A program made the position numbers and the translations under genes. A model generated the notes under the pieces. The model ran no database searches, was not told the origin of the DNA, and worked only from the letters and a program-made list of their open reading frames with translations. From a virus: DNA of 64,000 bases. Within the stretch, counting starts at the first letter, position 1. Every line of letters begins with the position of its first letter. The stretch is taken from positions 24,387 to 88,386 of IMG/VR virus record IMGVR_UViG_3300026097_001139. One strand, given 5' to 3'. Positions 37,324-60,420 of the stretch are shown piece after piece.

Positions 37324-38688
37324 TTATTTACTTGCCAGAGATAAGAGCAAGTTTTGGTTGGGCTTCGGTTGATTGTCTTCTAGTTGGATATAATGAATGG
37401 AATCTAAGCAATTTTTGATATTATCTTCAATATCAATAAAGTTGCTGTATATGTGTTTATTTATCTCGTTAATATCTAGTTTATCTGCGCCGAAAACAAA
37501 AAAATGCAGTCTTTTGTTGATATAGTCAGGAACAATAGAATAGGACACATCCAAATAATCAGATAAAAATTCGCGCAAGCGACTAAGATCTATTAAATGA
37601 TTCTGTTTCTGGAATAGTGTCAACGGATTACTGATATAATATCCTGTTTTGTTTTTGGTAATCGTGTGCCGTAATTTGCTGGTACTGTTGTTTCTTTTAA
37701 TAACAGTTCCATCTACACAGTGTGTAAATTCTATATCTGTGTCAACGTCTTGCATGCCAAAAGGCACATATGATTCAATCAAGTGTTTGTCTATACAATT
37801 TGAAGCATACACTCCAGTTGAAGCTGTGTAATAAAAGCAGGTAATACTCGTTGCACCATGATCAGTAATTAGCGATTGTGCTGTAGGAATGTCTAGATCG
37901 GCACAGGTAACAAACACAAATTCTGTGCTGAACTCACTGGGTAATGCTTGATTTAAATTTTTTACACTTGATAGATATATGTGAGTGGCACCGATTTTTT
38001 TACAAAATAAGAATTTCTTATACAAATAATTTGTCAAGGTTGTATTGGCAGCAATGTCTGTGTCGTAATAGTGTGTTTTGCAATTAACCAATGCAGGTAA
38101 CGTATATGAAATTAAACTTTGCAACAATGTTCTTGTAGGATGCACTGGCATATCGCTGTCGGTGAACCCAATAGACTTGTTGGTGTACAAGCACTGGTCT
38201 AGGATATCTTTGTGCGTGAGATATACCAGTCCACTGGGATAAACACTGTCATCGCACTGCGTTATAAAGGCATTTTGATTGATGTTTTTTGATTCCGGGA
38301 ACACAGAGTGTACGTTTTCCCACGGTTGAACCACAAAAGATTCTTTAGTAGGAATAACTTGATCTGTTAAGCCAGTGTAATCTACAATTGTTCCAATCAC
38401 GCAATCAATAAAACTATAAAAGTTTCGATCGTGTTTTGATAGTTTTTTTGCATTCGGCATTGCACCGTAGTACACAGGAATACCGTGAGCCCAGCAAGCA
38501 GTCATTGCCGCTGTTGCTGTGAATAAATGATTGGTGTTAATGTACACACACTGTGGTTTTACTGATAAACTCTCTAACTGCTCGTAGTAATAATTTTCTG
38601 CAAGAGTTAAATGATCTCGAGTGTAAATCTTGCCTGAAAAATCAATAAATGTAAGATCTTTATGGAAAAAATCACTTACGCAATTCAT
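37324..38688 (-). CDS. degenerate AMP-binding-like protein (distant paralog of 34793-36211)
   Basis: Similar length and layout (AMTACW..GI, LTHKDI, YTLPAL, FL..Y....Y.IVPDY..KRL.F, KPN..LLL) but no intact P-loop; TGATG-coupled to queE. Confidence 0.5.
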   Translation of the reverse strand: MNCVSDFFHKDLTFIDFSGKIYTRDHLTLAENYYYEQLESLSVKPQCVYINTNHLFTATAAMTACWAHGIPVYYGAMPNAKKLSKHDRNFYSFIDCVIGTIVDYTGLTDQVIPTKESFVVQPWENVHSVFPESKNINQNAFITQCDDSVYPSGLVYLTHKDILDQCLYTNKSIGFTDSDMPVHPTRTLLQSLISYTLPALVNCKTHYYDTDIAANTTLTNYLYKKFLFCKKIGATHIYLSSVKNLNQALPSEFSTEFVFVTCADLDIPTAQSLITDHGATSITCFYYTASTGVYASNCIDKHLIESYVPFGMQDVDTDIEFTHCVDGTVIKRNNSTSKLRHTITKNKTGYYISNPLTLFQKQNHLIDLSRLREFLSDYLDVSYSIVPDYINKRLHFFVFGADKLDINEINKHIYSNFIDIEDNIKNCLDSIHYIQLEDNQPKPNQNLLLSLASK

Positions 38689-39557
38689 CAAGTTCCCCAT
38701 GCGTTTCCAAAGATGTCGACGTGGAGACGGGGCGAATATCTCCATCCCCGCTCCATTGCGAGCTCTGCCACTCTCTGTGTGTTGAGACTGTATTCTTCGC
38801 TACGACCGCCCAATGGCATAACATACACCGGGCACTGGATATTCTCTGCGGCATACTGTGATACAGCAGTGCCAACTTCGTCCACGTCCACTGCATCAGC
38901 AACCACAAACTTAAAATAAATGTCACTGTTGTTAACATCAGCATAAGACCTAGCGACTTCAGGGCATATCGCATCATCCCAGGACTCCCCACTGACTGTG
39001 AGCTTGGGAGAGCAACTCCAGGTGAGTTTAAAACTTCTTTCTGCTTCCAGGCAATCAAGTAATTCTCTCTGAAGAGGCTGTGTGCAATTTGTCTCAATCG
39101 TGACATTTTTCAAATCCTGCATCTTGGGATGTGCAAATAGTTCAGGCCAAAACCGTTGCCACAGCATGGGCTCGCCGCCTGTTAGTATGAGATGGACATC
39201 CTGTCCGCTGGACATGGTCCAACAACCTTCGGGCGTGAGACTGAGCAAGTGTTCTACTACTTCGTCTACGGTTTTATTCATCATGAATTTTTTAAATTCA
39301 GGATAGATACTAGCGTATGTATCACAGCCTGTGTGCACTATGGGTAATTCTTCAAAGGATATATCCCGCTTGTGCACGTCAGTGGCAATTAAGTCTGCTA
39401 CTTCTGGATTGTATTTTTCGCGTTGCCATCCTCTATCTAGACCGAACCCTTGACATCTAAAGTTGCAACCAAAGGTACGCAGGAACACACTGGGCACTCC
39501 TACGTATTGTCCTTCACCTTGTACGCTGTAGAATGCTTCGCTGTAACGTAGATTCAT
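38688..39557 (-). CDS. queE: 7-carboxy-7-deazaguanine synthase
   Basis: EAFYSVQGEG..VGVPSVFLRTFGCNFRC...GCDT, LTGGEP, IETN, SPKL, YSPRLH. Confidence 0.93.
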   Translation of the reverse strand: MNLRYSEAFYSVQGEGQYVGVPSVFLRTFGCNFRCQGFGLDRGWQREKYNPEVADLIATDVHKRDISFEELPIVHTGCDTYASIYPEFKKFMMNKTVDEVVEHLLSLTPEGCWTMSSGQDVHLILTGGEPMLWQRFWPELFAHPKMQDLKNVTIETNCTQPLQRELLDCLEAERSFKLTWSCSPKLTVSGESWDDAICPEVARSYADVNNSDIYFKFVVADAVDVDEVGTAVSQYAAENIQCPVYVMPLGGRSEEYSLNTQRVAELAMERGWRYSPRLHVDIFGNAWGT

Positions 39558-42166: not shown

Positions 42167-42754
42167 TTATTGACTGTTTAGTCTATTCAGTAAATCTTGT
42201 GGCGCTTCCCAGTGCCACTTGGATTTCTGCGGTAGTACATCTCCGCTGGGCATTTTACGCTGTGCATCTGCTCGTGCAGTGTCTTGATCTACTTTACACA
42301 TTGCATCGTTGCGTTCATGCTCGTACACTCGAACACACTCTACATAACAGCGTCCGTTTGTAATCTTGTAGATATAGTGATTGACATGTTCCCAAATAAA
42401 CACACTGCTCATTTCCATGCTTACACCACTGGGTAGCACTCGCAGTGTACCCAGGATGCCTCCTGCTGATGTAAGTTCTTCTGGAATAGTGTTCAATCTT
42501 GGATCATCAGCGGGTAGTACTGTAACGTGATCAAAATAGTATTCCAAAAACTCTTTCACAGGTTTCAATCCACCAAACGGCACAATCCAACCATGTTCGT
42601 CTGGTTCGCCCGCGAATGTGAATTCTACACTTCTGTCATAACCATGCACCTGCGCACAATGTCCTGGCGTGCCGTCTTCGTTGGCATCAAACCATTGTGC
42701 ATGACCGCATGGTAAATTTTTGTATACTTTGGTTGATTTAATCTTAATACCCAT
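42167..42754 (-). CDS. queD: 6-carboxy-5,6,7,8-tetrahydropterin synthase
   Basis: GHAQ, HCAQVHGY, FGGLK..K..L...FDH, SME, VRVYEH..N. Confidence 0.88.
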   Translation of the reverse strand: MGIKIKSTKVYKNLPCGHAQWFDANEDGTPGHCAQVHGYDRSVEFTFAGEPDEHGWIVPFGGLKPVKEFLEYYFDHVTVLPADDPRLNTIPEELTSAGGILGTLRVLPSGVSMEMSSVFIWEHVNHYIYKITNGRCYVECVRVYEHERNDAMCKVDQDTARADAQRKMPSGDVLPQKSKWHWEAPQDLLNRLNSQ

Positions 42755-50458: not shown

Positions 50459-50659
50459 TTACCTCGACGTGTCAAGGAACCACATGTCCTTGCAACGTTT
50501 TCCATTGATGTGTTTGTTGTACTGCTGCCATGCATAACTTTTCCAGTTATACAAGTCAGCTTCGTCGTAGCGATAGCCGAAAGTTCGGCAGAATTTTAAA
50601 TAGCTATCGAGGTCTTCCCAGACATCTCGAATCGCCGGAGCTCTTGATCTTTTAGCCAT
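50459..50659 (-). CDS. small conserved phage protein
   Basis: Likely start MAKRSR; VWEDLD.Y..FCR.FGY.YDEADLY. Confidence 0.75.
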   Translation of the reverse strand: MAKRSRAPAIRDVWEDLDSYLKFCRTFGYRYDEADLYNWKSYAWQQYNKHINGKRCKDMWFLDTSR

Positions 50660-51068
50660 GATCTTGGTCTCTTTGTTTTTGTTGATAGTTAATGAAGCAA
50701 CCATTTTCGTTATCCTCAGATACTTCGATCCATACAGTTCGGCCCGGATACTCACTGGCAATCTGCTCGTAGAGATCGTCGGCCATCATTTCGCAGCTTT
50801 TATAGTCTAATTCTAGCACTGCTGTGCTGCTTTCTACTTCTTCATATAGACGTTGACACCAGCGTTTGAATTGAATAAACTCAATGTCTCGGTCATTATG
50901 AAAAACTTCTATCCACACCCTAAAGTGGAAAATATGTCGATGCGGGTATCCTAAGAAACTGACATCGTCCCAGTCGCCTGTTGCTAGCTTTGGATCAGTG
51001 TCGGCGCCTGGATATCTGTGTATACCTTCTTTTTGGAAAGTAACCCAAATCATTCTATTATCTGTCAT
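50652..51068 (-). CDS. QueD-like T-fold protein, DpdL-like (putative CDG decarboxylase)
   Basis: EGIHRYP...FLGYPHRHIFHF (LxxxHRHxF)...DRDIEF...SCEM.A...VSEDNENG; start MTDNRM. Confidence 0.72.
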   Translation of the reverse strand: MTDNRMIWVTFQKEGIHRYPGADTDPKLATGDWDDVSFLGYPHRHIFHFRVWIEVFHNDRDIEFIQFKRWCQRLYEEVESSTAVLELDYKSCEMMADDLYEQIASEYPGRTVWIEVSEDNENGCFINYQQKQRDQDHG

Positions 51069-51069
51069 A

Positions 51070-52239
51070 TTAGTGCTCAAATAGTTCAGGGAAAGTTTGT
51101 GCGGCATTTGTGCCGCGACGGTTATCTAGTTGTTGTATTTGCGAATAAAATCCAATTCGAGGTTCGTTAACATAGTGCTTGTAAGGAGTGTTTAGCATTG
51201 CTTCGATTTCGTTCAAGTTATTAATGATACTAGGATATTTAAACCTGTCTTTCCACTCAGTAATTTTTTTCTTCGCATTATCCAAATGATCACCGGGTAG
51301 CTGGCGAGGATCGAGCCAACCTCCAGTGCCGCTGTTTACATACACAATGTTTATCATCATATCACGCTCAGGGTGGTTAATAAAATCTAGTTTACGTTCT
51401 GCCCACTCTAAAAACCGATCAAAATTATACATGTTCAGGGTATTGTATACACATTGGAAATGGTGAATGCTTAAAAGACGATTTTGATTTAACCAATCGA
51501 AATTTTCTTCGAATTTTTTCCAATTTCCCGGATAACGCATATAATTATATTGGTCTTCGACTGCTTCTGCACTAATCATAAATTTAACACGATCCATCTT
51601 TGTAAGCAACCGAAAAATTTTATTGTCAGTGTTCATCAAGTTGGTGTTTACCCAAACTTCGGCTGTTGGATTACGTTCTATCAACTGTTCTAACAACCAT
51701 TCGTTGTCTTTGATCATCAACGGTTCGCCACCTGCTAGATATACTCTCTGTAAATTTTCAATTTGATCGTTGATATAACTTTTTAGAGTGTCTAGTTGCA
51801 GTGTATCTATACGAGTTTGTTGATCTAATTCTTTAGCCCAGGTACTGCTACATTCAGGCCCGCAGTATACACAGGCAAGATTACATGTATTTCTCCATCG
51901 CAGATCGAGGTATTTTAGATTAAAGTTCTCGGGACTGTCGTATAATTTTTTATCAGTACTATCAAACCAATCCAGCATTGATTTTCGCAGTGTTGTAACA
52001 TCATTGGACACTGTACAATTTGTGCACCCAAATGGAAGTTTATTATTATACCGCATGTTGTGTTTGATTTCGACATTGTGGTCGCTGGCAATGATATCTT
52101 CAATATTTTCCTGCGGAGTATATCCAAGATTGCTATGACTAATGCAACAATGATCAATTCTTCCTGACGGATCAACGTACAGACTCACCCAAGGAGCTGG
52201 GCAAAATCCTTGATTATTCCGATATTCATGATTATTCAT
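51070..52239 (-). CDS. radical SAM protein with N-terminal twitch/SPASM-like domain
   Basis: FCPAPW...HCC...CTNC, then NTCNLACVYC, AGGEPL, NTN. Confidence 0.88.
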   Translation of the reverse strand: MNNHEYRNNQGFCPAPWVSLYVDPSGRIDHCCISHSNLGYTPQENIEDIIASDHNVEIKHNMRYNNKLPFGCTNCTVSNDVTTLRKSMLDWFDSTDKKLYDSPENFNLKYLDLRWRNTCNLACVYCGPECSSTWAKELDQQTRIDTLQLDTLKSYINDQIENLQRVYLAGGEPLMIKDNEWLLEQLIERNPTAEVWVNTNLMNTDNKIFRLLTKMDRVKFMISAEAVEDQYNYMRYPGNWKKFEENFDWLNQNRLLSIHHFQCVYNTLNMYNFDRFLEWAERKLDFINHPERDMMINIVYVNSGTGGWLDPRQLPGDHLDNAKKKITEWKDRFKYPSIINNLNEIEAMLNTPYKHYVNEPRIGFYSQIQQLDNRRGTNAAQTFPELFEH

Positions 52240-52741
52240 TTGTTAGTACACTATCATTGTCATATTTTTCCCAGTCTGTAAACACACGTCGGTCCATCAA
52301 TTCATGCACACTGTGTACCCATACGCCCGGATTGGATCCTTCGAATTCTCGGTCGTCTAACTTGAGACAAGCATTGTAGCCCAATTGGTTTATATAAGGC
52401 AGTTTTGCCGAAATCATTGCTATAAAGCGATGTTGTTCGGTAAACCCTGCTTCTAGTATCCATTCCACATGAGAAATATCAAAGTCTAGTGTAACCCAAA
52501 AGCCAAGGTCTAGTAGATTATCCACTAGAGTGTACCATTTTTCATCAGGAACAAAACTGCCATTGGCACCAAGATACACATGCTTGACATGATGAAATTC
52601 AATTTGGTCTAGTACTTCGCCAAATGGTCTGCACCCTACTACAAACAGTGTATTCATCTCGTATACTGGTGTATGCTCTACTTCTTTGCCTGTAAAGTAA
52701 TTTACATTCACATGACTTTCTCTGTTGTTAGTGGTCATCAA
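52232..52741 (-). CDS. conserved hypothetical protein within deazaguanine locus
   Basis: YFTG.EVEHTP...TLFVVG, HVYLGAN.SF, KLDD..F..SNPGVW.H. Confidence 0.8.
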   Translation of the reverse strand: MMTTNNRESHVNVNYFTGKEVEHTPVYEMNTLFVVGCRPFGEVLDQIEFHHVKHVYLGANGSFVPDEKWYTLVDNLLDLGFWVTLDFDISHVEWILEAGFTEQHRFIAMISAKLPYINQLGYNACLKLDDREFEGSNPGVWVHSVHELMDRRVFTDWEKYDNDSVLTNE

Positions 52742-52949: not shown

Positions 52950-52978
52950 AGTATAACAAAACTATTACGAAAAATCAA
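52950..52978 (-). promoter_or_regulatory. sigma70-type promoter
   Basis: TTGATT-17 nt-TATACT with extended -10 TG. Confidence 0.65.
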
Positions 52979-54422
52979 ACAAATTATTAAACTGGCGCTG
53001 AGCATTAACTGCTTTCTTTCCGCCCATGCCTCGTGCTCCTGAAATGCCCATCCAAAACTTGCTGTAATGATCTAAAATGTCCAGTCGTTCCTGATAGTCT
53101 GGTGTTGCAAACACTTGATTGATTATGTCACGTGATGTTGTACCGGAAAGATTATCTACCAGCATGCTTGGGTGCACACCGGCATCAAACTGTCTATTCG
53201 CCTGTTGTACAGCGTTTATATGGTGCCACACATTGTGTCCCATCATCAATGCGTAACTGAAGCTGTCCCAGGAAGTTTTTCCTTCCTTGCCAATCTTATT
53301 CACGTCGCCTGGTGCATATTTGCAAACGTCTTTTACCATGAGATTGGCACTGATTGGACTGTCGTCGAACACATTGTGAACGCCTTCTGCTAATACAGCA
53401 TCTCTAAAGCTTCTTGAGTCATTGGCTAATGCTTTGTTATCCACAGTTGCTTCCATCTTGTAACTCCACTTGCTGTGATGATCAGTTACAGTATTGGTAT
53501 AGATCTGCCCATTGGCTGTGGCAAGGAATGGACTTGCACAGTCAAATGAGATGGTAAAATTGGGATTGTGATGCTTGCGTACTGCACGTTGAATGTCAGT
53601 TAACAGCACTGCCCATTCCAGTTTGCTTGTGCCAAGAAAGTGCATCCAATCATGTTGTCCTTGTTCTAGCAAGCCGTCGTGTATGAGTGTAACAACACGT
53701 CTCAATGCCAGATGAGGATCAGCCATGTTAGCGCCTCCCATACTCCAGCCTCGGAAGAATTTTTCGTGGCGAGCTGGGTCACTGTAGTGCTTCATGAGAT
53801 CATACCAATCATCGGCTTCTTGATGATTGCCGCCCTGTAATACATTCAAAAATTTGGCTTTGCCTGACGAATGTTTCATAAAGTATTCGTGATTGTACTT
53901 GGTTGCTGTCACAGCATCCTGATAGCTGTGGATCCCGGACTTTTCTGCACATTCTGGTACGGTGTATGTCCAGGTTGGAATATCCAATGTCATTGAATAA
54001 TCACTTACATTGTCTAACCACTTGAGCACTGTGCTTCGGTATTTTTCTGCACGTTTACAGTTTGGGTTTGCCCATTCGCCTTCCCAGACACCTTTGGCAA
54101 TTTGAAATCCACCTGAGTCAGCAAGCAGTGTGGTATGATTGCCGCGTTCTCGAATCATTGCTTCTTTTGGACTGTGCTTGCTTAAATCCAAATTGGCATG
54201 CCCGGCACTGTACAGTCCCCAACGATATGTGAACAATCCTTTTTGATCATTGAAGAAGTTCATCATCTCCATGTCTTGTATGCTCTGCGGCATACGACTT
54301 TGTTCTACATATTCTTCATACTGCTGTCTGCCAATATAGTTGGCATAAAAGCTGCTGATTGCTGGCAGAAATACTGCATAATCGTTTTGCTTATTGGTTA
54401 AGTTATCTTGAAGATATTCCAT
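52965..54422 (-). CDS. dpdA: TGT-fold DNA-guanine transglycosylase (DpdA-like)
   Basis: LADSGGFQ, MTLDIP, NVLQG, GWSMGG, HFLGTS, SFDCASP; no Zn-binding CxCxxC of bacterial tRNA TGT; same locus as folE/queD/queE. Confidence 0.8.
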   Translation of the reverse strand: MEYLQDNLTNKQNDYAVFLPAISSFYANYIGRQQYEEYVEQSRMPQSIQDMEMMNFFNDQKGLFTYRWGLYSAGHANLDLSKHSPKEAMIRERGNHTTLLADSGGFQIAKGVWEGEWANPNCKRAEKYRSTVLKWLDNVSDYSMTLDIPTWTYTVPECAEKSGIHSYQDAVTATKYNHEYFMKHSSGKAKFLNVLQGGNHQEADDWYDLMKHYSDPARHEKFFRGWSMGGANMADPHLALRRVVTLIHDGLLEQGQHDWMHFLGTSKLEWAVLLTDIQRAVRKHHNPNFTISFDCASPFLATANGQIYTNTVTDHHSKWSYKMEATVDNKALANDSRSFRDAVLAEGVHNVFDDSPISANLMVKDVCKYAPGDVNKIGKEGKTSWDSFSYALMMGHNVWHHINAVQQANRQFDAGVHPSMLVDNLSGTTSRDIINQVFATPDYQERLDILDHYSKFWMGISGARGMGGKKAVNAQRQFNNLFDFS

Positions 54423-55450
54423 TATTGTACAATGTCTCTTAGACTAGCGCCAAAATCTACTAGTTTGCTATTTCTGTTTACAGCGGCTCTCAAAGCATCA
54501 ATTGCAGGTAAATGATCACTGTGAGCTATGTTGCCTATCACATCCTGACTGGCAAAATCTCGCCAGGTGCCCCAATCTTCCAATCTATGTACCACGCCTT
54601 GAAAGTTATAATGTTCACATAAATCAACGAAATTGTCTATGTCATGCCAGTTATCTGCCTGAAGAACAAATTTCAATAACACTTCTGAGTCAGTGTGCGT
54701 TAGCCAATTGAGATTTTCTGTGAGATTTTTCCAACGACCTGGCTGTCTGACCTGTTCATATACCTCAGCACTTCCTGCGTCAATGCTGATAAAATATTGT
54801 GTTATGCTATTTAGAATGTCTGTGCCAGGCAGTAGTTTTTTCATCAACAGTCCATTGGTAAACAGTCTCACTGTTTGATATTGACTGGGAACAAATTCGC
54901 GAATCAATGGACGCATGATGTGACTGGCCAATGGATCGCCGTTGCCGCTCATCACAATGTGACATGGTTGATCAAAGTCCTCTAGTAAGCTGATCAAATG
55001 GCGTACCTGTGCGATCTTTTCTTCAAATTCGCCGTGGTCTGGACGAATCATTCTACTTTCGGGCCTGCAACTTGGGCACGCTAGATTACAACTTTCGTCA
55101 ATATTAATACTCACAGTGTAATGATCCTTGATTAAGTCACTGTGTAGCACTCCGCATCTATCTACAGCACAATGAAAAAAGTTACCACGGTCGATGTCTT
55201 GTTGTAACTGTTGAGCTGTGTTACTGTTCCATATGTCCTCTAGTTGATCAAACTTGGATATATGCCCAACACTGATAGGCAACCATGCTTCGCATGGACA
55301 TACAAAACAGTTGCCCTGCCAATCAACAACTAGGTCTCGACTTGGACTGTTACAACGATATGTTGTGGTGTGCCCTAGCTGTGCGTTGCGAGGTATGCTA
55401 TCATAGTTGTGCTGATGATAGCTGGGCACTGGCAACATGTTTAGGGACAA
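54422..55450 (-). CDS. radical SAM protein with N-terminal SPASM-like Cys cluster
   Basis: CNSP...CFVCPC...HCAVDRC, then SCNLACPSCR, GNGDP, FTNG, SIDAG. Confidence 0.87.
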   Translation of the reverse strand: MSLNMLPVPSYHQHNYDSIPRNAQLGHTTTYRCNSPSRDLVVDWQGNCFVCPCEAWLPISVGHISKFDQLEDIWNSNTAQQLQQDIDRGNFFHCAVDRCGVLHSDLIKDHYTVSINIDESCNLACPSCRPESRMIRPDHGEFEEKIAQVRHLISLLEDFDQPCHIVMSGNGDPLASHIMRPLIREFVPSQYQTVRLFTNGLLMKKLLPGTDILNSITQYFISIDAGSAEVYEQVRQPGRWKNLTENLNWLTHTDSEVLLKFVLQADNWHDIDNFVDLCEHYNFQGVVHRLEDWGTWRDFASQDVIGNIAHSDHLPAIDALRAAVNRNSKLVDFGASLRDIVQ

Positions 55451-56030: not shown

Positions 56031-56762
56031 TTATTTGCTCTGTGCTGGAAGGATATAGTTGTATTCAGCAATGCCACTGTTTACTGTGATCTGTGCTGCT
56101 CCGTCATCTGAAATACGCACAGTTTTATCGCCAGTGAGGTCCATGATACCAGCAAAGTGCTTCACAGGCCAGGCCCAACCACGCGACAGTGCGCCGCCTA
56201 CTGCTGGATGAAATACAAAATCTCCAGCGTGTGTGCTGTGGTCACCAAAGTAAAACTTGAGGTCCCCATCTTCGGTTTTAGCTACAAAGTTAGGCTCTTC
56301 GGAGTTGGCTGATATCTGCATCTTAAGACGCTGAATGCCTGCCACAGATGGTTCAAATTCTACATGCCAGTTAGCGCCTTTGAACTTGAAATCCTTTAGC
56401 TTTTGTGTGACAATTTCACTGCTCATAAAACGATAATCGTTTTTAAAGTCACCAGTGGCGTTTTCAAAATGCAAGCCCACAGGTACAGTTTCGCCGTTGC
56501 GATCCTGTTTGTTTACGGTGATTTCGGCATTTTCTCTGTATTCACCTAGATTCAACAATACCTTTAGTTTGCTAAGATTGGGCAATCCGAATGTGCCAAT
56601 AAATTCAGCAACTGGTGTAAGATATCGACCTTGCACAACCACACTGCGATCATCGGCCATGCCAACAATTGCAGTTTCTTTGTCATCGCCAGTGATCTTT
56701 AACAGCTCAATACAGCCAAGATCAAAAGTATGCTCTACTAGATCTAGTAAGTAGTCTCTCAC
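56031..56762 (-). CDS. putative DNA polymerase sliding clamp (gp45-like)
   Basis: 243 aa, two-domain size, FGL.NL.KL..LL, YRFM, YNYILPA C-terminus; two genes from polB; GTG start with SD AAGGAG. Confidence 0.65.
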   Translation of the reverse strand: MRDYLLDLVEHTFDLGCIELLKITGDDKETAIVGMADDRSVVVQGRYLTPVAEFIGTFGLPNLSKLKVLLNLGEYRENAEITVNKQDRNGETVPVGLHFENATGDFKNDYRFMSSEIVTQKLKDFKFKGANWHVEFEPSVAGIQRLKMQISANSEEPNFVAKTEDGDLKFYFGDHSTHAGDFVFHPAVGGALSRGWAWPVKHFAGIMDLTGDKTVRISDDGAAQITVNSGIAEYNYILPAQSK

Positions 56763-56825: not shown

Positions 56826-57773
56826 TTATAAAGGCATTGGTTTAGCAAGAGTTTGCCCTCCGCGTAATGTGGTTAATTCGCCAGGTGCTGTGCACTCAAT
56901 ATATCCAAGTCCGCTGTTGTGCATGGTTTTGTATATAATGGTGTACCCTAGCTCTTCCAGTATGCGAACCACTTCTCTGCCTGGGGTATAACATCTTTGT
57001 CGCGCTTCTACAAACTGAACAGCAGTTGAATCATCACAGTCATTGAATGTGAAAGCAAGCTTGCCGCCACTGCGTAACAGTGTTATAAATTCCTTGAAGT
57101 ATTTTTCTAACAGTTCAATTGGCCGCAGTTCAAAAAAGTTTGTTACCAAAATTAAGCCAATCTGCTTTGGAGGCAAATCCTGCATCATGGTATCAATATA
57201 CTCAATGGTGTCGGCAAAGCACAATCTACGCTGGTATCGCTTGCCAAACTGTTTTATACCCGGTAGCATGCTGTCCTGATTTGTGTCAACTAGATACAAA
57301 GGATCACAGGCTACCATTTCCCTCATGAAATCACAGGCCTGTGGTCTAAATACCACACCAGGAAATTGCCAATCTGTGATGATGTTGATACGATTTCGCA
57401 CAAGATCATCGAATTCCGGGTCAGTTTCTAAACTGTCCAGTCCTTCTGAACTGTCTTTGTTGTACTGATAAAAATTACTGCTGGCAGTGTAATAGGTGCC
57501 TTCGTGTTCAAGCACTTCCCGGAATACTTCTTCACGCAGTGCTCTAAAATGCAGTGGCAAACGTTTTGCATGCTGTATTGCCGCGCTATAATCACAATCT
57601 ATAGGATGATAGTTGTCCCATTCAATGTTTTCCAACTTGTGCTCTTCTGCAACACTTTCTATCAGATAAACAATTTCTCTCACTCGTTGGTCAGACTCGA
57701 TGCTGTCTATTAGATTAAGATAGGCAACCAGTTTACTTAAACTATGTCGTGCACGTATTCTATCACTAAGCAT
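56826..57773 (-). CDS. methyltransferase-fold protein (degenerate SAM motif)
   Basis: DPLYLVD, LPPKQIGLIL..NFF, LLRSGGKLAFTFND. Confidence 0.6.
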   Translation of the reverse strand: MLSDRIRARHSLSKLVAYLNLIDSIESDQRVREIVYLIESVAEEHKLENIEWDNYHPIDCDYSAAIQHAKRLPLHFRALREEVFREVLEHEGTYYTASSNFYQYNKDSSEGLDSLETDPEFDDLVRNRINIITDWQFPGVVFRPQACDFMREMVACDPLYLVDTNQDSMLPGIKQFGKRYQRRLCFADTIEYIDTMMQDLPPKQIGLILVTNFFELRPIELLEKYFKEFITLLRSGGKLAFTFNDCDDSTAVQFVEARQRCYTPGREVVRILEELGYTIIYKTMHNSGLGYIECTAPGELTTLRGGQTLAKPMPL

Positions 57774-60420
57774 CGCCGAAGTCGAACAAGTCCTCGAATG
57801 TGTTTTGTGTGTTTGTTGCGCTGGACAAATCCCAATCCAGCACTCCTAACAAGTTGTCGATTTTGCCGTCGATCAACACAGTTTCCATTTCGCCGTCGTC
57901 GAACGGCATGTCTTTAAACCACTGTGGCAAATGCAGTTCATCTGTGGGATAAGCAATACTGGTCCATCCTAGTGGATTCTTTTTCAACTTGCACACAATC
58001 ACTTTCATGCCATCAATAACTGTCATGCTATAGTTATCACTGTTCATTTCTTTGAGTGTATTCCAGTTCATGCCTGCTCGTACATGCCCGGGCATATTGG
58101 TTTTGCCTTCGCGTTTTTCTTTTTTAACATATTTGGTCAAGTTGTTTACACGCTTGGGCGATCCTTTCTCCCAGCCTGGTCTTTCAGAAAACTCGTACTT
58201 GAATTCTCTAATGCGTTCAATCACACTGTCTCTAGTGTATCCTTGCAGAACCATGTCGAGGATTTCTTTGAGAAAATTTTGTATTACCACCGGAGTGTCA
58301 GAACGTTTTAGATCCAAGCCCATGGCTTTAACTTTGCCAGGTTTGCCTTCTATGTCAAGACGTTTGCCTTCTTGGTCATACACCATCACAGCATATCGTT
58401 TCTTGGTAATAAACAAGCCTTTGGTGCCAGTGATTTCTCTACCACCTCGAATCACACTACCGCGTTTGCGTGGGCAATGAAATGCTTGTTCCATAAAGCC
58501 TGGAAAGCTGTCGTTTACTTCATCTGAGATGCTTTCGTACAGTTGTACAGCAATTTCTTTGTTCCATTCGACATCTTGTTCTTTGATCTCAGGCCATGCA
58601 CTGAAATAACAACTATCTGTGTCGCCGTAAATGATTGCTTTTCCTATATGATCATACTCGCCTGTTATGCACTGATTAACGTATGCATCCATGTGTTTAG
58701 CAATACTTCTGCCAGTGAGTGTGGTTGATTGCCCGATGCGTTTATCAAAGAATCTACATCCAGGATTGAGAATTGCGCCATACAGGCTGTTCAAGTTAAT
58801 CTTTTTTACCAGCTGCCGCTTGTCCCAGTATTCTTCGTCTACTTTGTTTGTAGATTCTTTTAGTTGGGCCTGCATTTCTTTACGTTCTGCGTACCAGCGT
58901 TCCAGCAAACCAGGAATAACTGCTTCAACTTCGCCTGTAAATATAGTGCCGTTTGCGCTGAGCATCCAGTTACTGTGACTGTCAAAGATCATTTTCCATA
59001 CTTCTGCGGCACTATGCACACTTTCTTCGCCGTTGACCCAGCGTATGGTTATTTCTGTGCCCCGCTGTTGTTCCATTACAGCAGTGTATTCCAAGCTTGC
59101 AAACAAACCTTCCCAGGCGGCAGCAAAGCTTGCACCATTACGCATGCGTTCTTGAATGTGATTATCTGTCATGTAAGGAACAAGCTGTCCTACAATAGTC
59201 TCTGGTCCCATGTTCAGTGCACGAATTGTACTGGGATATAGACTGTTAATATCGATTGAACCCACCCACTCATGAATGCCCTTTTTGGGATATGCTACGT
59301 AGGCACCAGCTGCCTGTGTATCTTCATCTGTGAGTCTTTGTTTGCGATTTGGAACAACCATGTTTCGAGCATGTGCTTCATTGATAATAGCCTGCTCTGT
59401 TACTGCAACTGCTCCCATTGTGGTTGGCAATAGTACAGTATTTTCATGTGCCAATGTGTTAGCAAGATCCAAAAACTTGAGTTTTTTGTCAATGTTGGCT
59501 AGCAGTACAACGTCTTGTCGGTTGTATTCAATAAACGTTTTGAAATCTTGATTGTAAAGCTGATCCAGTGTACCTTCGTACACTGTTTTACTGCCAAGGT
59601 TTTCGTATTCTCCGATAGCATCGAGACTGTAACTATGCCGTTCTTCGTAGGTGTACTTGCGATACAGTTGCATGTAGTCCATGTGCACCCTGCCAATCAA
59701 GTCAAATGTGATATTTTCAGCACCATAGCGTTCAAAGGTTCGCTGTTTGGGCAACTGTCCCCACAAACAGAATCGTCTAGTGTCATCCTTGCTGAGTACA
59801 CGGATACAGCGTTGCACAGTGTAAGGAATATCGTAGCCTTCTGAGTTCCAACCAGTAAGCACATCGGCGTCTTCGATTATATCCAAGAACGTGCTGATCA
59901 TCTCACCTTCATCCCAGAACAGAAAGGTGTTATCAAATTCTTCAACTTGTTCCTGTGCAGTTTCCTTGCTCATGTGCTTGGGCGGCACTGCCAGTGTGAT
60001 CAGTTGATCCAGCCAGTCAAGATACACTGTTATTGATGTAATAGGATTAAATGGATCATCAGGTGAACTATAACCGCGTTCTTGGTCAAAGTCCACCTCA
60101 ATGTCAAAAAATGCAGTGTGCAGTTTGGGTGCATCAACACCCTGGTAATGATCTGCTAAACAACGGAACACTGGATTGATATCACTTTCGTAGATATTTT
60201 TTCCGCTGTTGATTTTAACTTCTTTGTGAAATTCTTTGCTGTTTTTTGTAGCAAATCTGCTGACACTTGTTCCGTAAATGCTCTGGAACTTGCCCCGGGG
60301 ATCATCATAGTAAAACACATATTCGGCAGGGTATTCTTGATATATCCGCTCGCCGTTTTGTCTTTCTACAATGTGAATTCGATCTTGATTGCGATCAAAT
60401 AGTGCGTCTACGTAGCTCAT
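57766..60420 (-). CDS. family B DNA polymerase
   Basis: ExoI FDIEVD, ExoII WNSEGYD, ExoIII YNRQD, motif A DINSLYPS, motif B KINLNSLYG, motif C YGDTDS, KKRY. Confidence 0.97.
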   Translation of the reverse strand: MSYVDALFDRNQDRIHIVERQNGERIYQEYPAEYVFYYDDPRGKFQSIYGTSVSRFATKNSKEFHKEVKINSGKNIYESDINPVFRCLADHYQGVDAPKLHTAFFDIEVDFDQERGYSSPDDPFNPITSITVYLDWLDQLITLAVPPKHMSKETAQEQVEEFDNTFLFWDEGEMISTFLDIIEDADVLTGWNSEGYDIPYTVQRCIRVLSKDDTRRFCLWGQLPKQRTFERYGAENITFDLIGRVHMDYMQLYRKYTYEERHSYSLDAIGEYENLGSKTVYEGTLDQLYNQDFKTFIEYNRQDVVLLANIDKKLKFLDLANTLAHENTVLLPTTMGAVAVTEQAIINEAHARNMVVPNRKQRLTDEDTQAAGAYVAYPKKGIHEWVGSIDINSLYPSTIRALNMGPETIVGQLVPYMTDNHIQERMRNGASFAAAWEGLFASLEYTAVMEQQRGTEITIRWVNGEESVHSAAEVWKMIFDSHSNWMLSANGTIFTGEVEAVIPGLLERWYAERKEMQAQLKESTNKVDEEYWDKRQLVKKINLNSLYGAILNPGCRFFDKRIGQSTTLTGRSIAKHMDAYVNQCITGEYDHIGKAIIYGDTDSCYFSAWPEIKEQDVEWNKEIAVQLYESISDEVNDSFPGFMEQAFHCPRKRGSVIRGGREITGTKGLFITKKRYAVMVYDQEGKRLDIEGKPGKVKAMGLDLKRSDTPVVIQNFLKEILDMVLQGYTRDSVIERIREFKYEFSERPGWEKGSPKRVNNLTKYVKKEKREGKTNMPGHVRAGMNWNTLKEMNSDNYSMTVIDGMKVIVCKLKKNPLGWTSIAYPTDELHLPQWFKDMPFDDGEMETVLIDGKIDNLLGVLDWDLSSATNTQNTFEDLFDFGDA

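What the first reader, a model, noticed from the sequence alone, without database searches (positions are those of the whole stretch)
52965..53006. DpdA-like transglycosylase ends in the same putative clamp-binding peptide as the DNA polymerase
Seen: the DpdA-like protein ends ...NAQRQFNNLFDFS and PolB (57766-57810) ends ...NTQNTFEDLFDFGDA, a shared Q-x-x-F-x-x-L-F-D-F after a flexible linker. The putative clamp gene lies between them. Known: T4/RB69 gp43, gp33 and gp55 bind the gp45 clamp via C-terminal hydrophobic peptides (SLDFLF/LFDMFDF type). Inference: the base-exchange enzyme is tethered to the sliding clamp, so deazaguanine is inserted into nascent DNA at the replisome. I am not aware of this coupling being described for DpdA.
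Basis: partly seen in the sequence, partly recalled or inferred. Interest (0 to 1): 0.85.

Follow-up and report, generated by a model that had tools for sequence, protein, structure and literature searches.

The report
Polymerase-type clamp-docking tail on DpdA-like enzyme
In this uncultured jumbo phage, an enzyme of the type that swaps guanine in DNA for a 7-deazaguanine ends in the same short peptide as the phage's own DNA polymerase, and the gene between them folds as a sliding clamp, so DNA modification is probably hooked to the replication machinery; binding is predicted, not measured.

Summary
The 485-aa protein (52965-54422, minus strand) ends NAQRQFNNLFDFS. The T4-type PolB (57766-60420) ends NTQNTFEDLFDFGDA.

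The gene between them (56031-56762) models with pLDDT 96.8 as a PCNA/gp45-type clamp.

The 485-aa protein belongs to the TGT/DpdA superfamily. Its catalytic and base-binding motifs align to E. coli Tgt, and folE, queD, queE and a DpdL-like gene lie nearby. It is too divergent for Pfam and fits none of the named DpdA subfamilies.

The core F-x-x-L-F-[D/E] is kept in all 63 distinct PolB tails examined. About 92% of 176 DpdA-like homologues have it, and the other 14 carry an LF-type motif at the very C-terminus. It is also present in distant cultured relatives (PA5oct, Vibrio phage 2.275.O, Phosso) and almost absent from other ORFs. Rare changes in the core sometimes occur in both proteins of the same phage.

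Best reading, about 0.65: a clamp-binding peptide recruits the base-exchange enzyme to clamp-loaded, newly replicated DNA. No binding data exist.

I found no paper that links DpdA to a clamp. The closest phage precedent, T4 alpha-glucosyltransferase with gp45, is contested. This scan has already reported the same theme on other DNA (83 notes, at least 76 genomes).

The parts
52965..53006 (-). C-terminal tail of the DpdA-like protein, NAQRQFNNLFDFS plus stop; proposed clamp-binding peptide (core F-N-N-L-F-D-F)
   Evidence: Translation. The core is conserved in 176 homologues: F at position 0 in 165, L at +3 in 155, F at +4 in 174.
52965..54422 (-). DpdA-like DNA-guanine transglycosylase candidate (TGT superfamily, 485 aa)
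   Evidence: Local hhalign against E. coli Tgt gives P=0.0016 over 295 collinear columns. It aligns DSGGFQ, LDIPT, LQG, MGG and FDCASP with the Tgt active-site motifs. PF01702 hits 8/49 homologues, best E 8.5e-5. TIGR00449 gives E 0.027.
56031..56762 (-). Sliding clamp (PCNA/gp45-type, 243 aa)
   Evidence: AlphaFold2 model from a 118-sequence alignment: pLDDT 96.8, pTM 0.92. Foldseek top PDB hits are PCNA, E 4.7e-11, TM 0.68. BFVD hits include phage sliding clamps. A homologue is found in all 80 first-set loci, in the same locus as the DpdA-like gene and, in 77 of them, PolB.
57766..57813 (-). C-terminal tail of PolB, NTQNTFEDLFDFGDA plus stop; presumed clamp-binding peptide
   Evidence: Translation. 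T(-6), T(-1), F0, L+3 and F+4 are invariant or nearly so in 63 distinct PolB tails, always 1-11 residues from the end.
57766..60420 (-). T4-type family B DNA polymerase (884 aa)
   Evidence: phrog_262 at E 8.9e-194, covering residues 7-880. Pfam DNA_pol_B and the exonuclease domain also match.
50652..51107 (-). T-fold protein, homologue of phiST DpdL (proposed CDG decarboxylase)
   Evidence: tblastn hit to phiST CGPG_00067, 31% identity, E 2e-7. Hits at 61% to PA5oct and Phosso genes next to their clamp or DpdA-like genes. DpdL is defined in PMC10516641.
44053..44751 (-). GTP cyclohydrolase I (FolE)
   Evidence: PF01227 E 2.2e-39; phrog_2197.
42167..42754 (-). QueD-like 6-carboxytetrahydropterin synthase
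   Evidence: PF01242 E 6.5e-15; phrog_2389 E 6.8e-32.
38688..39557 (-). QueE-like radical SAM (7-carboxy-7-deazaguanine synthase)
   Evidence: phrog_2076 E 3.3e-52.

Best explanation
The 485-aa protein is a divergent TGT/DpdA-type transglycosylase that exchanges guanine in phage DNA for a 7-deazaguanine. The base is made by the phage's FolE-QueD-QueE(-DpdL-like) pathway. The enzyme's C-terminal peptide (QFNNLFDFS) copies the hydrophobic-acidic peptide that ends the phage's T4-type PolB (TFEDLFDFGDA). By analogy with T4/RB69 gp43, gp55 and gp33, both peptides dock on the phage's PCNA/gp45-type sliding clamp, encoded between the two genes. The enzyme would then be recruited to clamps loaded on freshly replicated duplex and could scan DNA in one dimension. 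Shown here: the shared motif, its conservation and specificity, the clamp fold, and the TGT-type active-site motifs with their pathway context. Inferred: peptide-clamp binding, DNA as substrate, and timing relative to the fork.
For: (1) Both tails are as described.

(2) PolB tails: F-x-x-L-F is invariant in 63 distinct tails. DpdA-like tails: [KR]xVNAxT[QM]FNxLF[DE] in 162/176 homologues, and the other 14 carry an LF-type motif at the extreme C-terminus.

(3) Specificity: 3/3812 other ORFs in 80 loci match. In five contigs of 144-262 kb, strict FxxLF[DE]F lies within two residues of the end in the four PolB hits and 34 residues from the end in one DpdA-like protein. The only two other hits in long ORFs (197 and 317 aa) lie far from the C-terminus.

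(4) Distant cultured relatives keep the pairing. PA5oct: PolB ...HFDSLFGW, DpdA-like ...SFNSLFDV. Vibrio phage 2.275.O: PolB ...NNTDLFDW, DpdA-like ...NNNDLFGW, both having lost F0 and gained a terminal W. Phosso: PolB ...FNDLFTF, DpdA-like ...EGLF.

(5) Rare core changes are shared within a phage: LFK/LFK, FFD/FFD, NKFF/NKFF. Fisher p=0.014 at +3.

(6) The clamp fold is confirmed. PolB, clamp and DpdA-like genes lie together in 77/80 first-set loci, with PolB upstream of the DpdA-like gene as in the window, and the clamp is present in all 80.

(7) In T4, the gp43, gp55 and gp33 tails are interchangeable clamp ligands, and an internal position is tolerated (PMC2988020). That fits the mostly internal motif in DpdA-like homologues.

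(8) PA5oct DNA resists enzymes in a way that suggests a modified G (PMC12191111).
Against: There is no binding or complex prediction, and multimer modelling was not available. The DpdA-like protein itself could not be modelled, so I have not shown that the tail is exposed and disordered. The stretch before the motif is conserved rather than variable. At the flanking, variable motif positions there is no within-clade covariation between the two proteins (p about 0.8), and the shared core changes are few. In T4 the only proposed clamp link for a DNA-modifying enzyme (alpha-GT with gp45) was not reproduced in a recent preprint. No late-transcription or other replisome protein with the motif was found as a positive control, but the contig is only about 25% complete.
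Confidence: 0.65

Rival explanations
1. The shared peptide is a real docking motif, but its partner is another replisome component to which both PolB and the DpdA-like enzyme bind. Candidates are the clamp loader, the single-strand-binding protein or the helicase/primase, rather than the clamp.
For: Conservation and specificity show there is a shared partner but do not identify it. In Phosso the DpdA-like gene sits among DnaE-like, primase and DnaB-like genes rather than next to the clamp. T4 gp43's tail has more than one binding site on gp45 (PMC2988020), so tail interactions are not simple.
Against: The PolB is T4-type, and its family profile runs to the end of the protein. In T4/RB69 that tail is the clamp ligand. 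The clamp gene is the most constant neighbour: a homologue is present in all 80 first-set loci and in 78 second-set loci.
Confidence: 0.12
2. The motif in the DpdA-like protein is an intramolecular or DNA-contacting element of the enzyme, for example a terminal amphipathic segment next to the basic GKK patch. Its likeness to the PolB tail would then be convergent or coincidental.
For: The preceding GxRGxxGK[KR]xxNA segment is conserved like part of a fold or a nucleic-acid-binding element. There is no covariation at flanking positions. No model of the enzyme was obtained.
Against: The motif's distance to the C-terminus varies from 1 to 42 residues. Some lineages carry a second copy at the extreme end (LFDFGD) after a variable linker. 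Distant lineages change the motif in the same way as their own PolB. The pattern is nearly absent from other proteins.
Confidence: 0.1
3. The tail does bind the clamp, but its role is not to deliver base exchange during replication. It might instead compete with PolB for the clamp as a regulator, or the enzyme might act on RNA (tRNA) with the motif serving an unrelated localisation role.
For: TGT-family enzymes are primarily tRNA enzymes. Substrate was not tested, and the Zn site of tRNA-type TGT is missing, so the chemistry cannot be read off.
Against: The gene sits with a deazaguanine pathway including a DpdL-like gene, as in phages with modified DNA (PMC10516641). The homologue-bearing phage PA5oct shows G-dependent restriction resistance. 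A DNA clamp is an odd platform for a tRNA enzyme.
Confidence: 0.08

Closest known systems
T4/RB69 sliding-clamp ligands: the C-terminal tails of gp43 polymerase, gp55 and gp33 that bind gp45
   Same: A short hydrophobic-acidic peptide at or near the C-terminus, very like the cognate polymerase's own tail. T4 gp43 ends ...EEKASLDFLFG. There is a PCNA-type trimeric-clamp fold. In T4 the tails are interchangeable and work when internal (PMC2988020).
   Different: The client here is a DNA base-exchange enzyme, not a polymerase or a transcription factor. The motif consensus is F-x-x-L-F-[D/E]-[F/V] rather than L-D-F-L-F. Binding is not demonstrated.
Phage DpdA families (DpdA1-4) that insert 7-deazaguanines into DNA (PMC6884629; PMC10516641)
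   Same: TGT-superfamily active-site motifs. Co-location with folE, queD, queE and a DpdL-like gene, the same QueC-less gene set as the phiST/DpdA3 type. DNA modification as the likely role.
   Different: About twice the size of phiST DpdA3 (485 vs 259 aa) and only marginally alignable to it (hhalign P=0.005). Not detected by Pfam TGT on the window protein. phiST DpdA3 has no LF tail, and phiST uses a DnaE-type polymerase. No clamp link is reported for any DpdA.
T4 alpha-glucosyltransferase with gp45 (proposed replication-coupled glucosylation)
   Same: The idea that a phage DNA-modifying enzyme is tethered to the sliding clamp so that modification accompanies replication.
   Different: That interaction rests on older in vitro data. 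A 2025 preprint using C-terminally His-tagged enzymes did not reproduce it (10.64898/2025.12.06.692756). No polymerase-like tail motif is described there. The evidence here is a conserved sequence motif.
Eukaryotic PCNA clients that modify or repair DNA through PIP-type motifs (for example DNMT1 and UNG2; from general knowledge, not checked here)
   Same: An enzyme acting on newly replicated DNA is recruited by a short clamp-binding peptide.
   Different: Different motif grammar (PIP is Q-x-x-[LIM]-x-x-[FY]-[FY]), different clamp lineage and different chemistry (base exchange).

Membership tests
TGT/DpdA superfamily | Catalytic Asp nucleophile in the FDC motif (E. coli Tgt D264) | tested here: met
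   SFDCASP (D294, invariant in A1) aligns to MFDCVMP of E. coli Tgt.
TGT/DpdA superfamily | DSGGFQ motif with the general acid/base Asp (E. coli D89), plus base-binding Asp, Q and GG motifs | tested here: met
   LLADSGGFQIA aligns to ILTDSGGFQVF. LDIPT (D147) aligns to FDECT. LQG aligns to IQG. MGG aligns to VGG. D102, D147 and Q196 are invariant.
TGT/DpdA superfamily | Statistically significant profile match or TIM-barrel TGT fold | tested here: inconclusive
   The window protein has no Pfam hit and TIGR00449 gives only E 0.027. PF01702 hits 8/49 homologues, best E 8.5e-5. hhalign against E. coli Tgt gives P=0.0016 over 295 columns but probability only 16%. There is no PDB sequence hit.
TGT/DpdA superfamily | Zn site CxCxxC...H of tRNA-type TGT | tested here: not met
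   The region aligned to E. coli CDCYTC contains no Cys cluster. This argues against a canonical tRNA-guanine transglycosylase, not against superfamily membership.
TGT/DpdA superfamily | Genomic association with 7-deazaguanine synthesis genes | tested here: met
   FolE, QueD, QueE and a DpdL-like gene are in the window. QueF, YhhQ-like, QueC and FolE lie next to the Vibrio phage homologue. QueE lies near the PA5oct homologue.
TGT/DpdA superfamily | DNA guanine-exchange activity | not testable with these tools
   Needs biochemistry or LC-MS of virion DNA.
DpdA3 subfamily (phiST CGPG_00065 type) | Clear sequence relationship to phiST/CP220 DpdA3 | tested here: inconclusive
   tblastn at 1e-5 finds only PA5oct-like phages, Vibrio 2.275.O and Phosso. 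hhalign against phiST DpdA3 gives P=0.005 over 213 columns and shares the MHFLG motif. The length differs about two-fold.
T4-type sliding-clamp ligand (clamp-binding peptide client) | Short hydrophobic-acidic motif at or near the C-terminus resembling the cognate polymerase tail | tested here: met
T4-type sliding-clamp ligand (clamp-binding peptide client) | Motif conserved across homologues while its position and surroundings vary | tested here: met
   All 176 homologues carry a motif. Its distance to the end is 1-42 residues, and some lineages have a second terminal copy. The proximal 'linker' is nevertheless conserved.
T4-type sliding-clamp ligand (clamp-binding peptide client) | A cognate PCNA/gp45-type clamp is encoded by the same genome | tested here: met
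T4-type sliding-clamp ligand (clamp-binding peptide client) | Physical binding of the peptide to the clamp | not testable with these tools
   There is no multimer prediction tool. It needs ITC, fluorescence polarisation, pull-down or a co-structure.
PCNA/gp45 sliding clamp (for 56031-56762) | Two-domain clamp fold | tested here: met
   pLDDT 96.8. Foldseek gives PCNA at E 4.7e-11, TM 0.65-0.71. Sequence-only methods failed.
PCNA/gp45 sliding clamp (for 56031-56762) | Trimeric ring, and a clamp loader in the genome | not tested
   Only a monomer was modelled. The contig is about 25% of the genome, and I did not look for a clamp loader.

The most novel reading that the evidence does not exclude
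A DNA base-exchange enzyme is a bona fide sliding-clamp client. The phage clamp carries the DpdA-like transglycosylase along newly replicated DNA, which would explain how a post-replicative transglycosylase can reach very high or complete guanine replacement. More generally, phage DNA-hypermodification enzymes may join the replisome through polymerase-mimicking tails.
Probability: 0.55. Interest if true: 0.8.

Novelty: new variant of a known kind. Interest (0 to 1): 0.7.

Why it matters
7-Deazaguanine DNA modifications are described as post-replicative, made by DpdA acting alone or, in bacteria, with DpdB (PMC10516641). How some phages reach very high replacement levels is unexplained.

A conserved polymerase-like docking peptide on a large, widespread family offers a concrete and testable mechanism: the replication clamp delivers the enzyme. 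The family has more than 7,700 metagenomic members and includes the cultured phage PA5oct. This would add a new class of client to phage sliding clamps.

It also bears on the contested T4 alpha-glucosyltransferase-gp45 question. C-terminal tags, as used in the recent negative study, would block exactly this kind of motif.

In practice the tail is a handle. Deleting it in a tractable phage such as PA5oct should change the modification level and the sensitivity to restriction.

Tried and rejected
- **Single-sequence AlphaFold of the clamp** gave an unusable model (pLDDT 36) and cost one of two structure jobs. As a result the DpdA-like protein could not be modelled.
- **Sequence-only identification of the clamp failed.** There was no Pfam or NCBIfam hit, no PDB hit with profiles, and hhalign against T4 gp45 gave only 15% probability. 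Only the fold search settled it.
- **Several sequence searches with the DpdA-like family found nothing.** There was no PDB sequence hit, no PADLOC DpdA hit, and no Pfam hit for the PA5oct, Vibrio or Phosso homologues.
- **A third motif bearer was considered and rejected.** Radical SAM 51070-52239 ends QTFPELFEH, but its paralogues end in the related FPxL..W family tail.
- **Fine-scale covariation at flanking motif positions** between DpdA-like and PolB tails was tested and not found.
- **An N-terminal MSFQALFDFE** in an ORF of a related contig (L092) looks like chance.
- **The acidic-tail motif LDxxKLDxLE** was searched for in neighbouring proteins and found only in the DpdA-like family.
I used the search for related loci instead.
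- **The genome search could not supply a diverse TGT set**, because a W handle has no relatives.

Full report
**Observation.** The window is the right-hand 64 kb of an 88,386-bp IMG/VR viral contig, about 41% G+C and estimated about 25% complete. On the minus strand lie, in order of transcription:
- PolB (57766-60420, 884 aa);
- a 315-aa ORF that overlaps the PolB stop;
- a 243-aa ORF (56031-56762);
- a 208-aa ORF;
- a radical SAM/SPASM gene (54422-55450);
- a 485-aa ORF (52965-54422).

The 485-aa protein ends NAQRQFNNLFDFS and PolB ends NTQNTFEDLFDFGDA, exactly as reported. In the whole contig these are the only real ORFs with such a C-terminal motif. A look-alike at the end of radical SAM 51070-52239 (QTFPELFEH) is the conserved FPxL..W tail of that paralogue family, so I discount it.

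**What the three proteins are.**

PolB is a T4-type family B polymerase. phrog_262 matches at E 8.9e-194 over residues 7-880, so the family profile reaches the tail. Its nearest cultured relatives are jumbo phages such as Phosso, Atu_ph07, Vibrio phage 2.275.O and the 121Q/GAP32 group, at 42-46% identity.

The 243-aa protein had no informative sequence match. A single-sequence fold failed. With 117 diverse homologues from a full-library profile search, AlphaFold2 gave pLDDT 96.8 and pTM 0.92. Foldseek then placed it with PCNA (yeast PCNA E 4.7e-11, TM about 0.68) and with phage and giant-virus sliding clamps. It is a PCNA/gp45-type clamp.

The 485-aa protein has no Pfam or PHROG hit, but several results place it in the TGT/DpdA superfamily:
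- TIGR00449 matches weakly (E 0.027).
- PF01702 is hit by 8 of 49 close homologues, best E 8.5e-5.
- One source names a homologue queuine/archaeosine tRNA-ribosyltransferase.
- An Atlas cluster at score 0.93 carries PF01702 on 17% of its members.
- A local hhalign of a 274-sequence alignment against E. coli Tgt gives P=0.0016 over 295 collinear columns.

That hhalign alignment pairs the window's motifs with E. coli Tgt as follows:

| Window protein | E. coli Tgt |
|---|---|
| DSGGFQ (D102) | DSGGFQ (D89) |
| LDIPT (D147) | FDECT (D143) |
| LQG | IQG |
| MGG | VGG |
| FDCASP (D294) | FDCVMP (D264, the nucleophile) |

These residues are invariant or nearly so in the family. The residue roles are from my knowledge of TGT. 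The Zn-binding CxCxxC of tRNA-type TGT is absent.

The genomic context fits DNA deazaguanine modification. The window also encodes FolE, QueD and QueE. It also has a T-fold protein (50652-51107) homologous to phiST CGPG_00067, the proposed CDG decarboxylase DpdL (PMC10516641). I noticed no QueC in the part of the contig I annotated, but I did not search for it.

The family is large, with more than 7,700 database proteins, many on contigs of 200-350 kb.

**Is the shared tail more than chance?** I fetched 80 related viral loci and later 78 more.
- PolB was found in 77/80 of the first set, upstream of the DpdA-like gene as in the window, and the clamp in 80/80.
- In 63 distinct PolB tails, T(-1), F0, L+3 and F+4 are invariant and T(-6) is nearly so. 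The motif ends 1-11 residues from the C-terminus. The consensus is T-x-x-x-N-T-F-x-S-L-F-[D/E]-F.
- In 176 distinct DpdA-like proteins the consensus is [K/R]-x-V-N-A-x-T-[Q/M]-F-N-x-L-F-[D/E]-x, with F0 in 165, L+3 in 155 and F+4 in 174.
- The 14 DpdA-like proteins my pattern missed all carry an LF-type motif at the very end, such as GLFDFGD, NLFDFGD, LFEW or IFEE.
- A strict pattern occurs in 61/79 PolB and 61/81 DpdA-like ORFs, but in only 3/3812 other ORFs of those loci.
- In five contigs of 144-262 kb, FxxLF[DE]F lies within two residues of the end in the four PolB hits and 34 residues from the end in one DpdA-like protein. The only two other hits in long ORFs (197 and 317 aa) lie far from the C-terminus.

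The window's arrangement, with the motif at the extreme end, is the minority form (about 14%). Most homologues continue with a 22-37 aa acidic tail containing LDxxKLDxLE. One subgroup has two motif copies.

**Distant relatives.** The pairing holds in cultured phages at 28-37% identity.

| Phage | PolB ends | DpdA-like tail |
|---|---|---|
| PA5oct | HFDSLFGW | SFNSLFDV, then an acidic tail |
| Vibrio phage 2.275.O | NNTDLFDW | ends NNNDLFGW |
| Phosso | FNDLFTF | ends EGLF |

- In PA5oct and Vibrio phage 2.275.O the gene order runs PolB, clamp, DpdA-like, with one or two small ORFs between the clamp and the DpdA-like gene.
- In the Vibrio phage both tails have lost F0 and gained a terminal W.
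- The Vibrio phage locus continues with QueF, a YhhQ-like transporter, QueC and FolE. PA5oct has QueE nearby.
- PA5oct DNA resists G-dependent restriction enzymes (PMC12191111).
- PA5oct was said to carry a deazaguanine synthesis/incorporation system (PMC7824862).

**Co-variation.** At the variable flanking positions there is none (p about 0.8). Rare changes at core positions are sometimes shared by both proteins of one phage: LFK/LFK (L134), FFD/FFD (L136, L141) and NKFF/NKFF (L178). Fisher p is 0.014 at position +3, not corrected for relatedness. I treat this as suggestive only.

**Mechanism.** In T4 the hydrophobic-acidic C-termini of gp43, gp55 and gp33 are the gp45-binding epitopes. They are interchangeable, and the gp55 epitope still works when made internal. 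The RB69 clamp was crystallised with the polymerase's last 11 residues (PMC2988020). T4 gp43 ends ...ASLDFLFG.

The PolB here is of that family and its tail sits in the equivalent place, so clamp binding by the PolB tail is a strong inference. The DpdA-like tail shares the F-x-x-L-F-[D/E] core, and in this phage also the following Phe, so the simplest reading is that it uses the same site.

Clamps remain on duplex DNA behind the fork. A tethered transglycosylase would therefore be concentrated on new DNA and could scan it in one dimension, as gp55 does. Binding, substrate and timing are all inferred.

**What is known.** Full-text searches found no paper linking DpdA or deazaguanine DNA modification to a sliding clamp, PCNA or the replisome. 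The DpdA literature describes the modification as post-replicative (PMC10516641).

The nearest phage precedent is the proposed T4 alpha-glucosyltransferase-gp45 interaction. A 2025 preprint using C-terminally His-tagged enzymes failed to reproduce it.

phiST DpdA3, which gives complete G replacement, is 259 aa, has no LF tail and sits beside a DnaE-type polymerase. The tail is therefore a feature of this jumbo-phage subfamily, not of DpdA in general.

**Earlier scan notes.** This scan has raised the same theme before on other DNA: 83 notes in at least 76 genomes, several with follow-ups reaching similar verdicts. I used them only as leads (PMC2988020), not as evidence.

**Verdict.** It is a new kind of client for a known kind of docking motif. 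The limits are that there is no complex model and no model of the enzyme, and the contig is a fragment.

Noticed in passing
Homologues P0003-P0120; loci L001-L080 (for example L019:9992-11515): Most DpdA-like homologues continue past the LF motif with a 22-37 aa acidic tail that holds a second conserved motif, [L/F]D-x-x-K-L-D-x-L-E. In the fetched loci this motif is found only in this family (38/81 against 3/3812 other ORFs). The window's protein lacks it. It may be a second docking peptide for another partner.
   Followed up: partly
L102-L105 (for example L103:10001-11581): A subgroup of DpdA-like proteins has two motif copies: QFDxMFDLD near the fold and NLFDFGD at the extreme C-terminus. 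They are separated by a conserved EEARLIMKP linker. Their PolB ends STFGNLFEF.
   Followed up: partly
window 50652-51107 (-): This T-fold protein (HRHIFHF motif) is homologous to phiST DpdL, the proposed 7-carboxy-7-deazaguanine decarboxylase. It has 61%-identical copies near the DpdA-like gene in PA5oct and near the clamp gene in Phosso. Together with FolE, QueD and QueE, and with no QueC noticed, it points to a phiST-like 7-deazaguanine (dDG-type) base, perhaps decorated further.
   Followed up: partly
window 52232-52741 (-): A 169-aa ORF of unknown function lies immediately downstream of the DpdA-like gene. A homologue is found in 78 of the 80 first-set loci and 61 of the second set. It has no Pfam, PHROG or NCBIfam hit and may be an accessory of the transglycosylase.
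   Followed up: no
window 56826-57773 (-): A 315-aa ORF between PolB and the clamp overlaps the PolB stop by 8 nt. It has only a weak methyltransferase-like hit (UbiE-type, E 0.033) and is present in about half of the related loci.
   Followed up: no
window 51070-52239 (-), and paralogues elsewhere on the contig: Many radical SAM/SPASM paralogues have the SPASM-like domain at the N-terminus and a shared C-terminal FPxL..W tail. One of them ends QTFPELFEH, which superficially mimics the clamp motif.
   Followed up: partly
L081:2614-7840 (PA5oct): The PA5oct PolB is annotated in two pieces split by a Hef-like homing endonuclease gene. Its clamp homologue is annotated 'structural protein' on the basis of virion mass spectrometry.
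   Followed up: no
L092 (G003:C1:108851-108871, -): An ORF of at least 197 aa in a related 236-kb contig begins MSFQALFDFESALAKYTGAPY, so it has the strict motif at its N-terminus. This is probably chance, since it looks like the start of a sugar aminotransferase.
   Followed up: no
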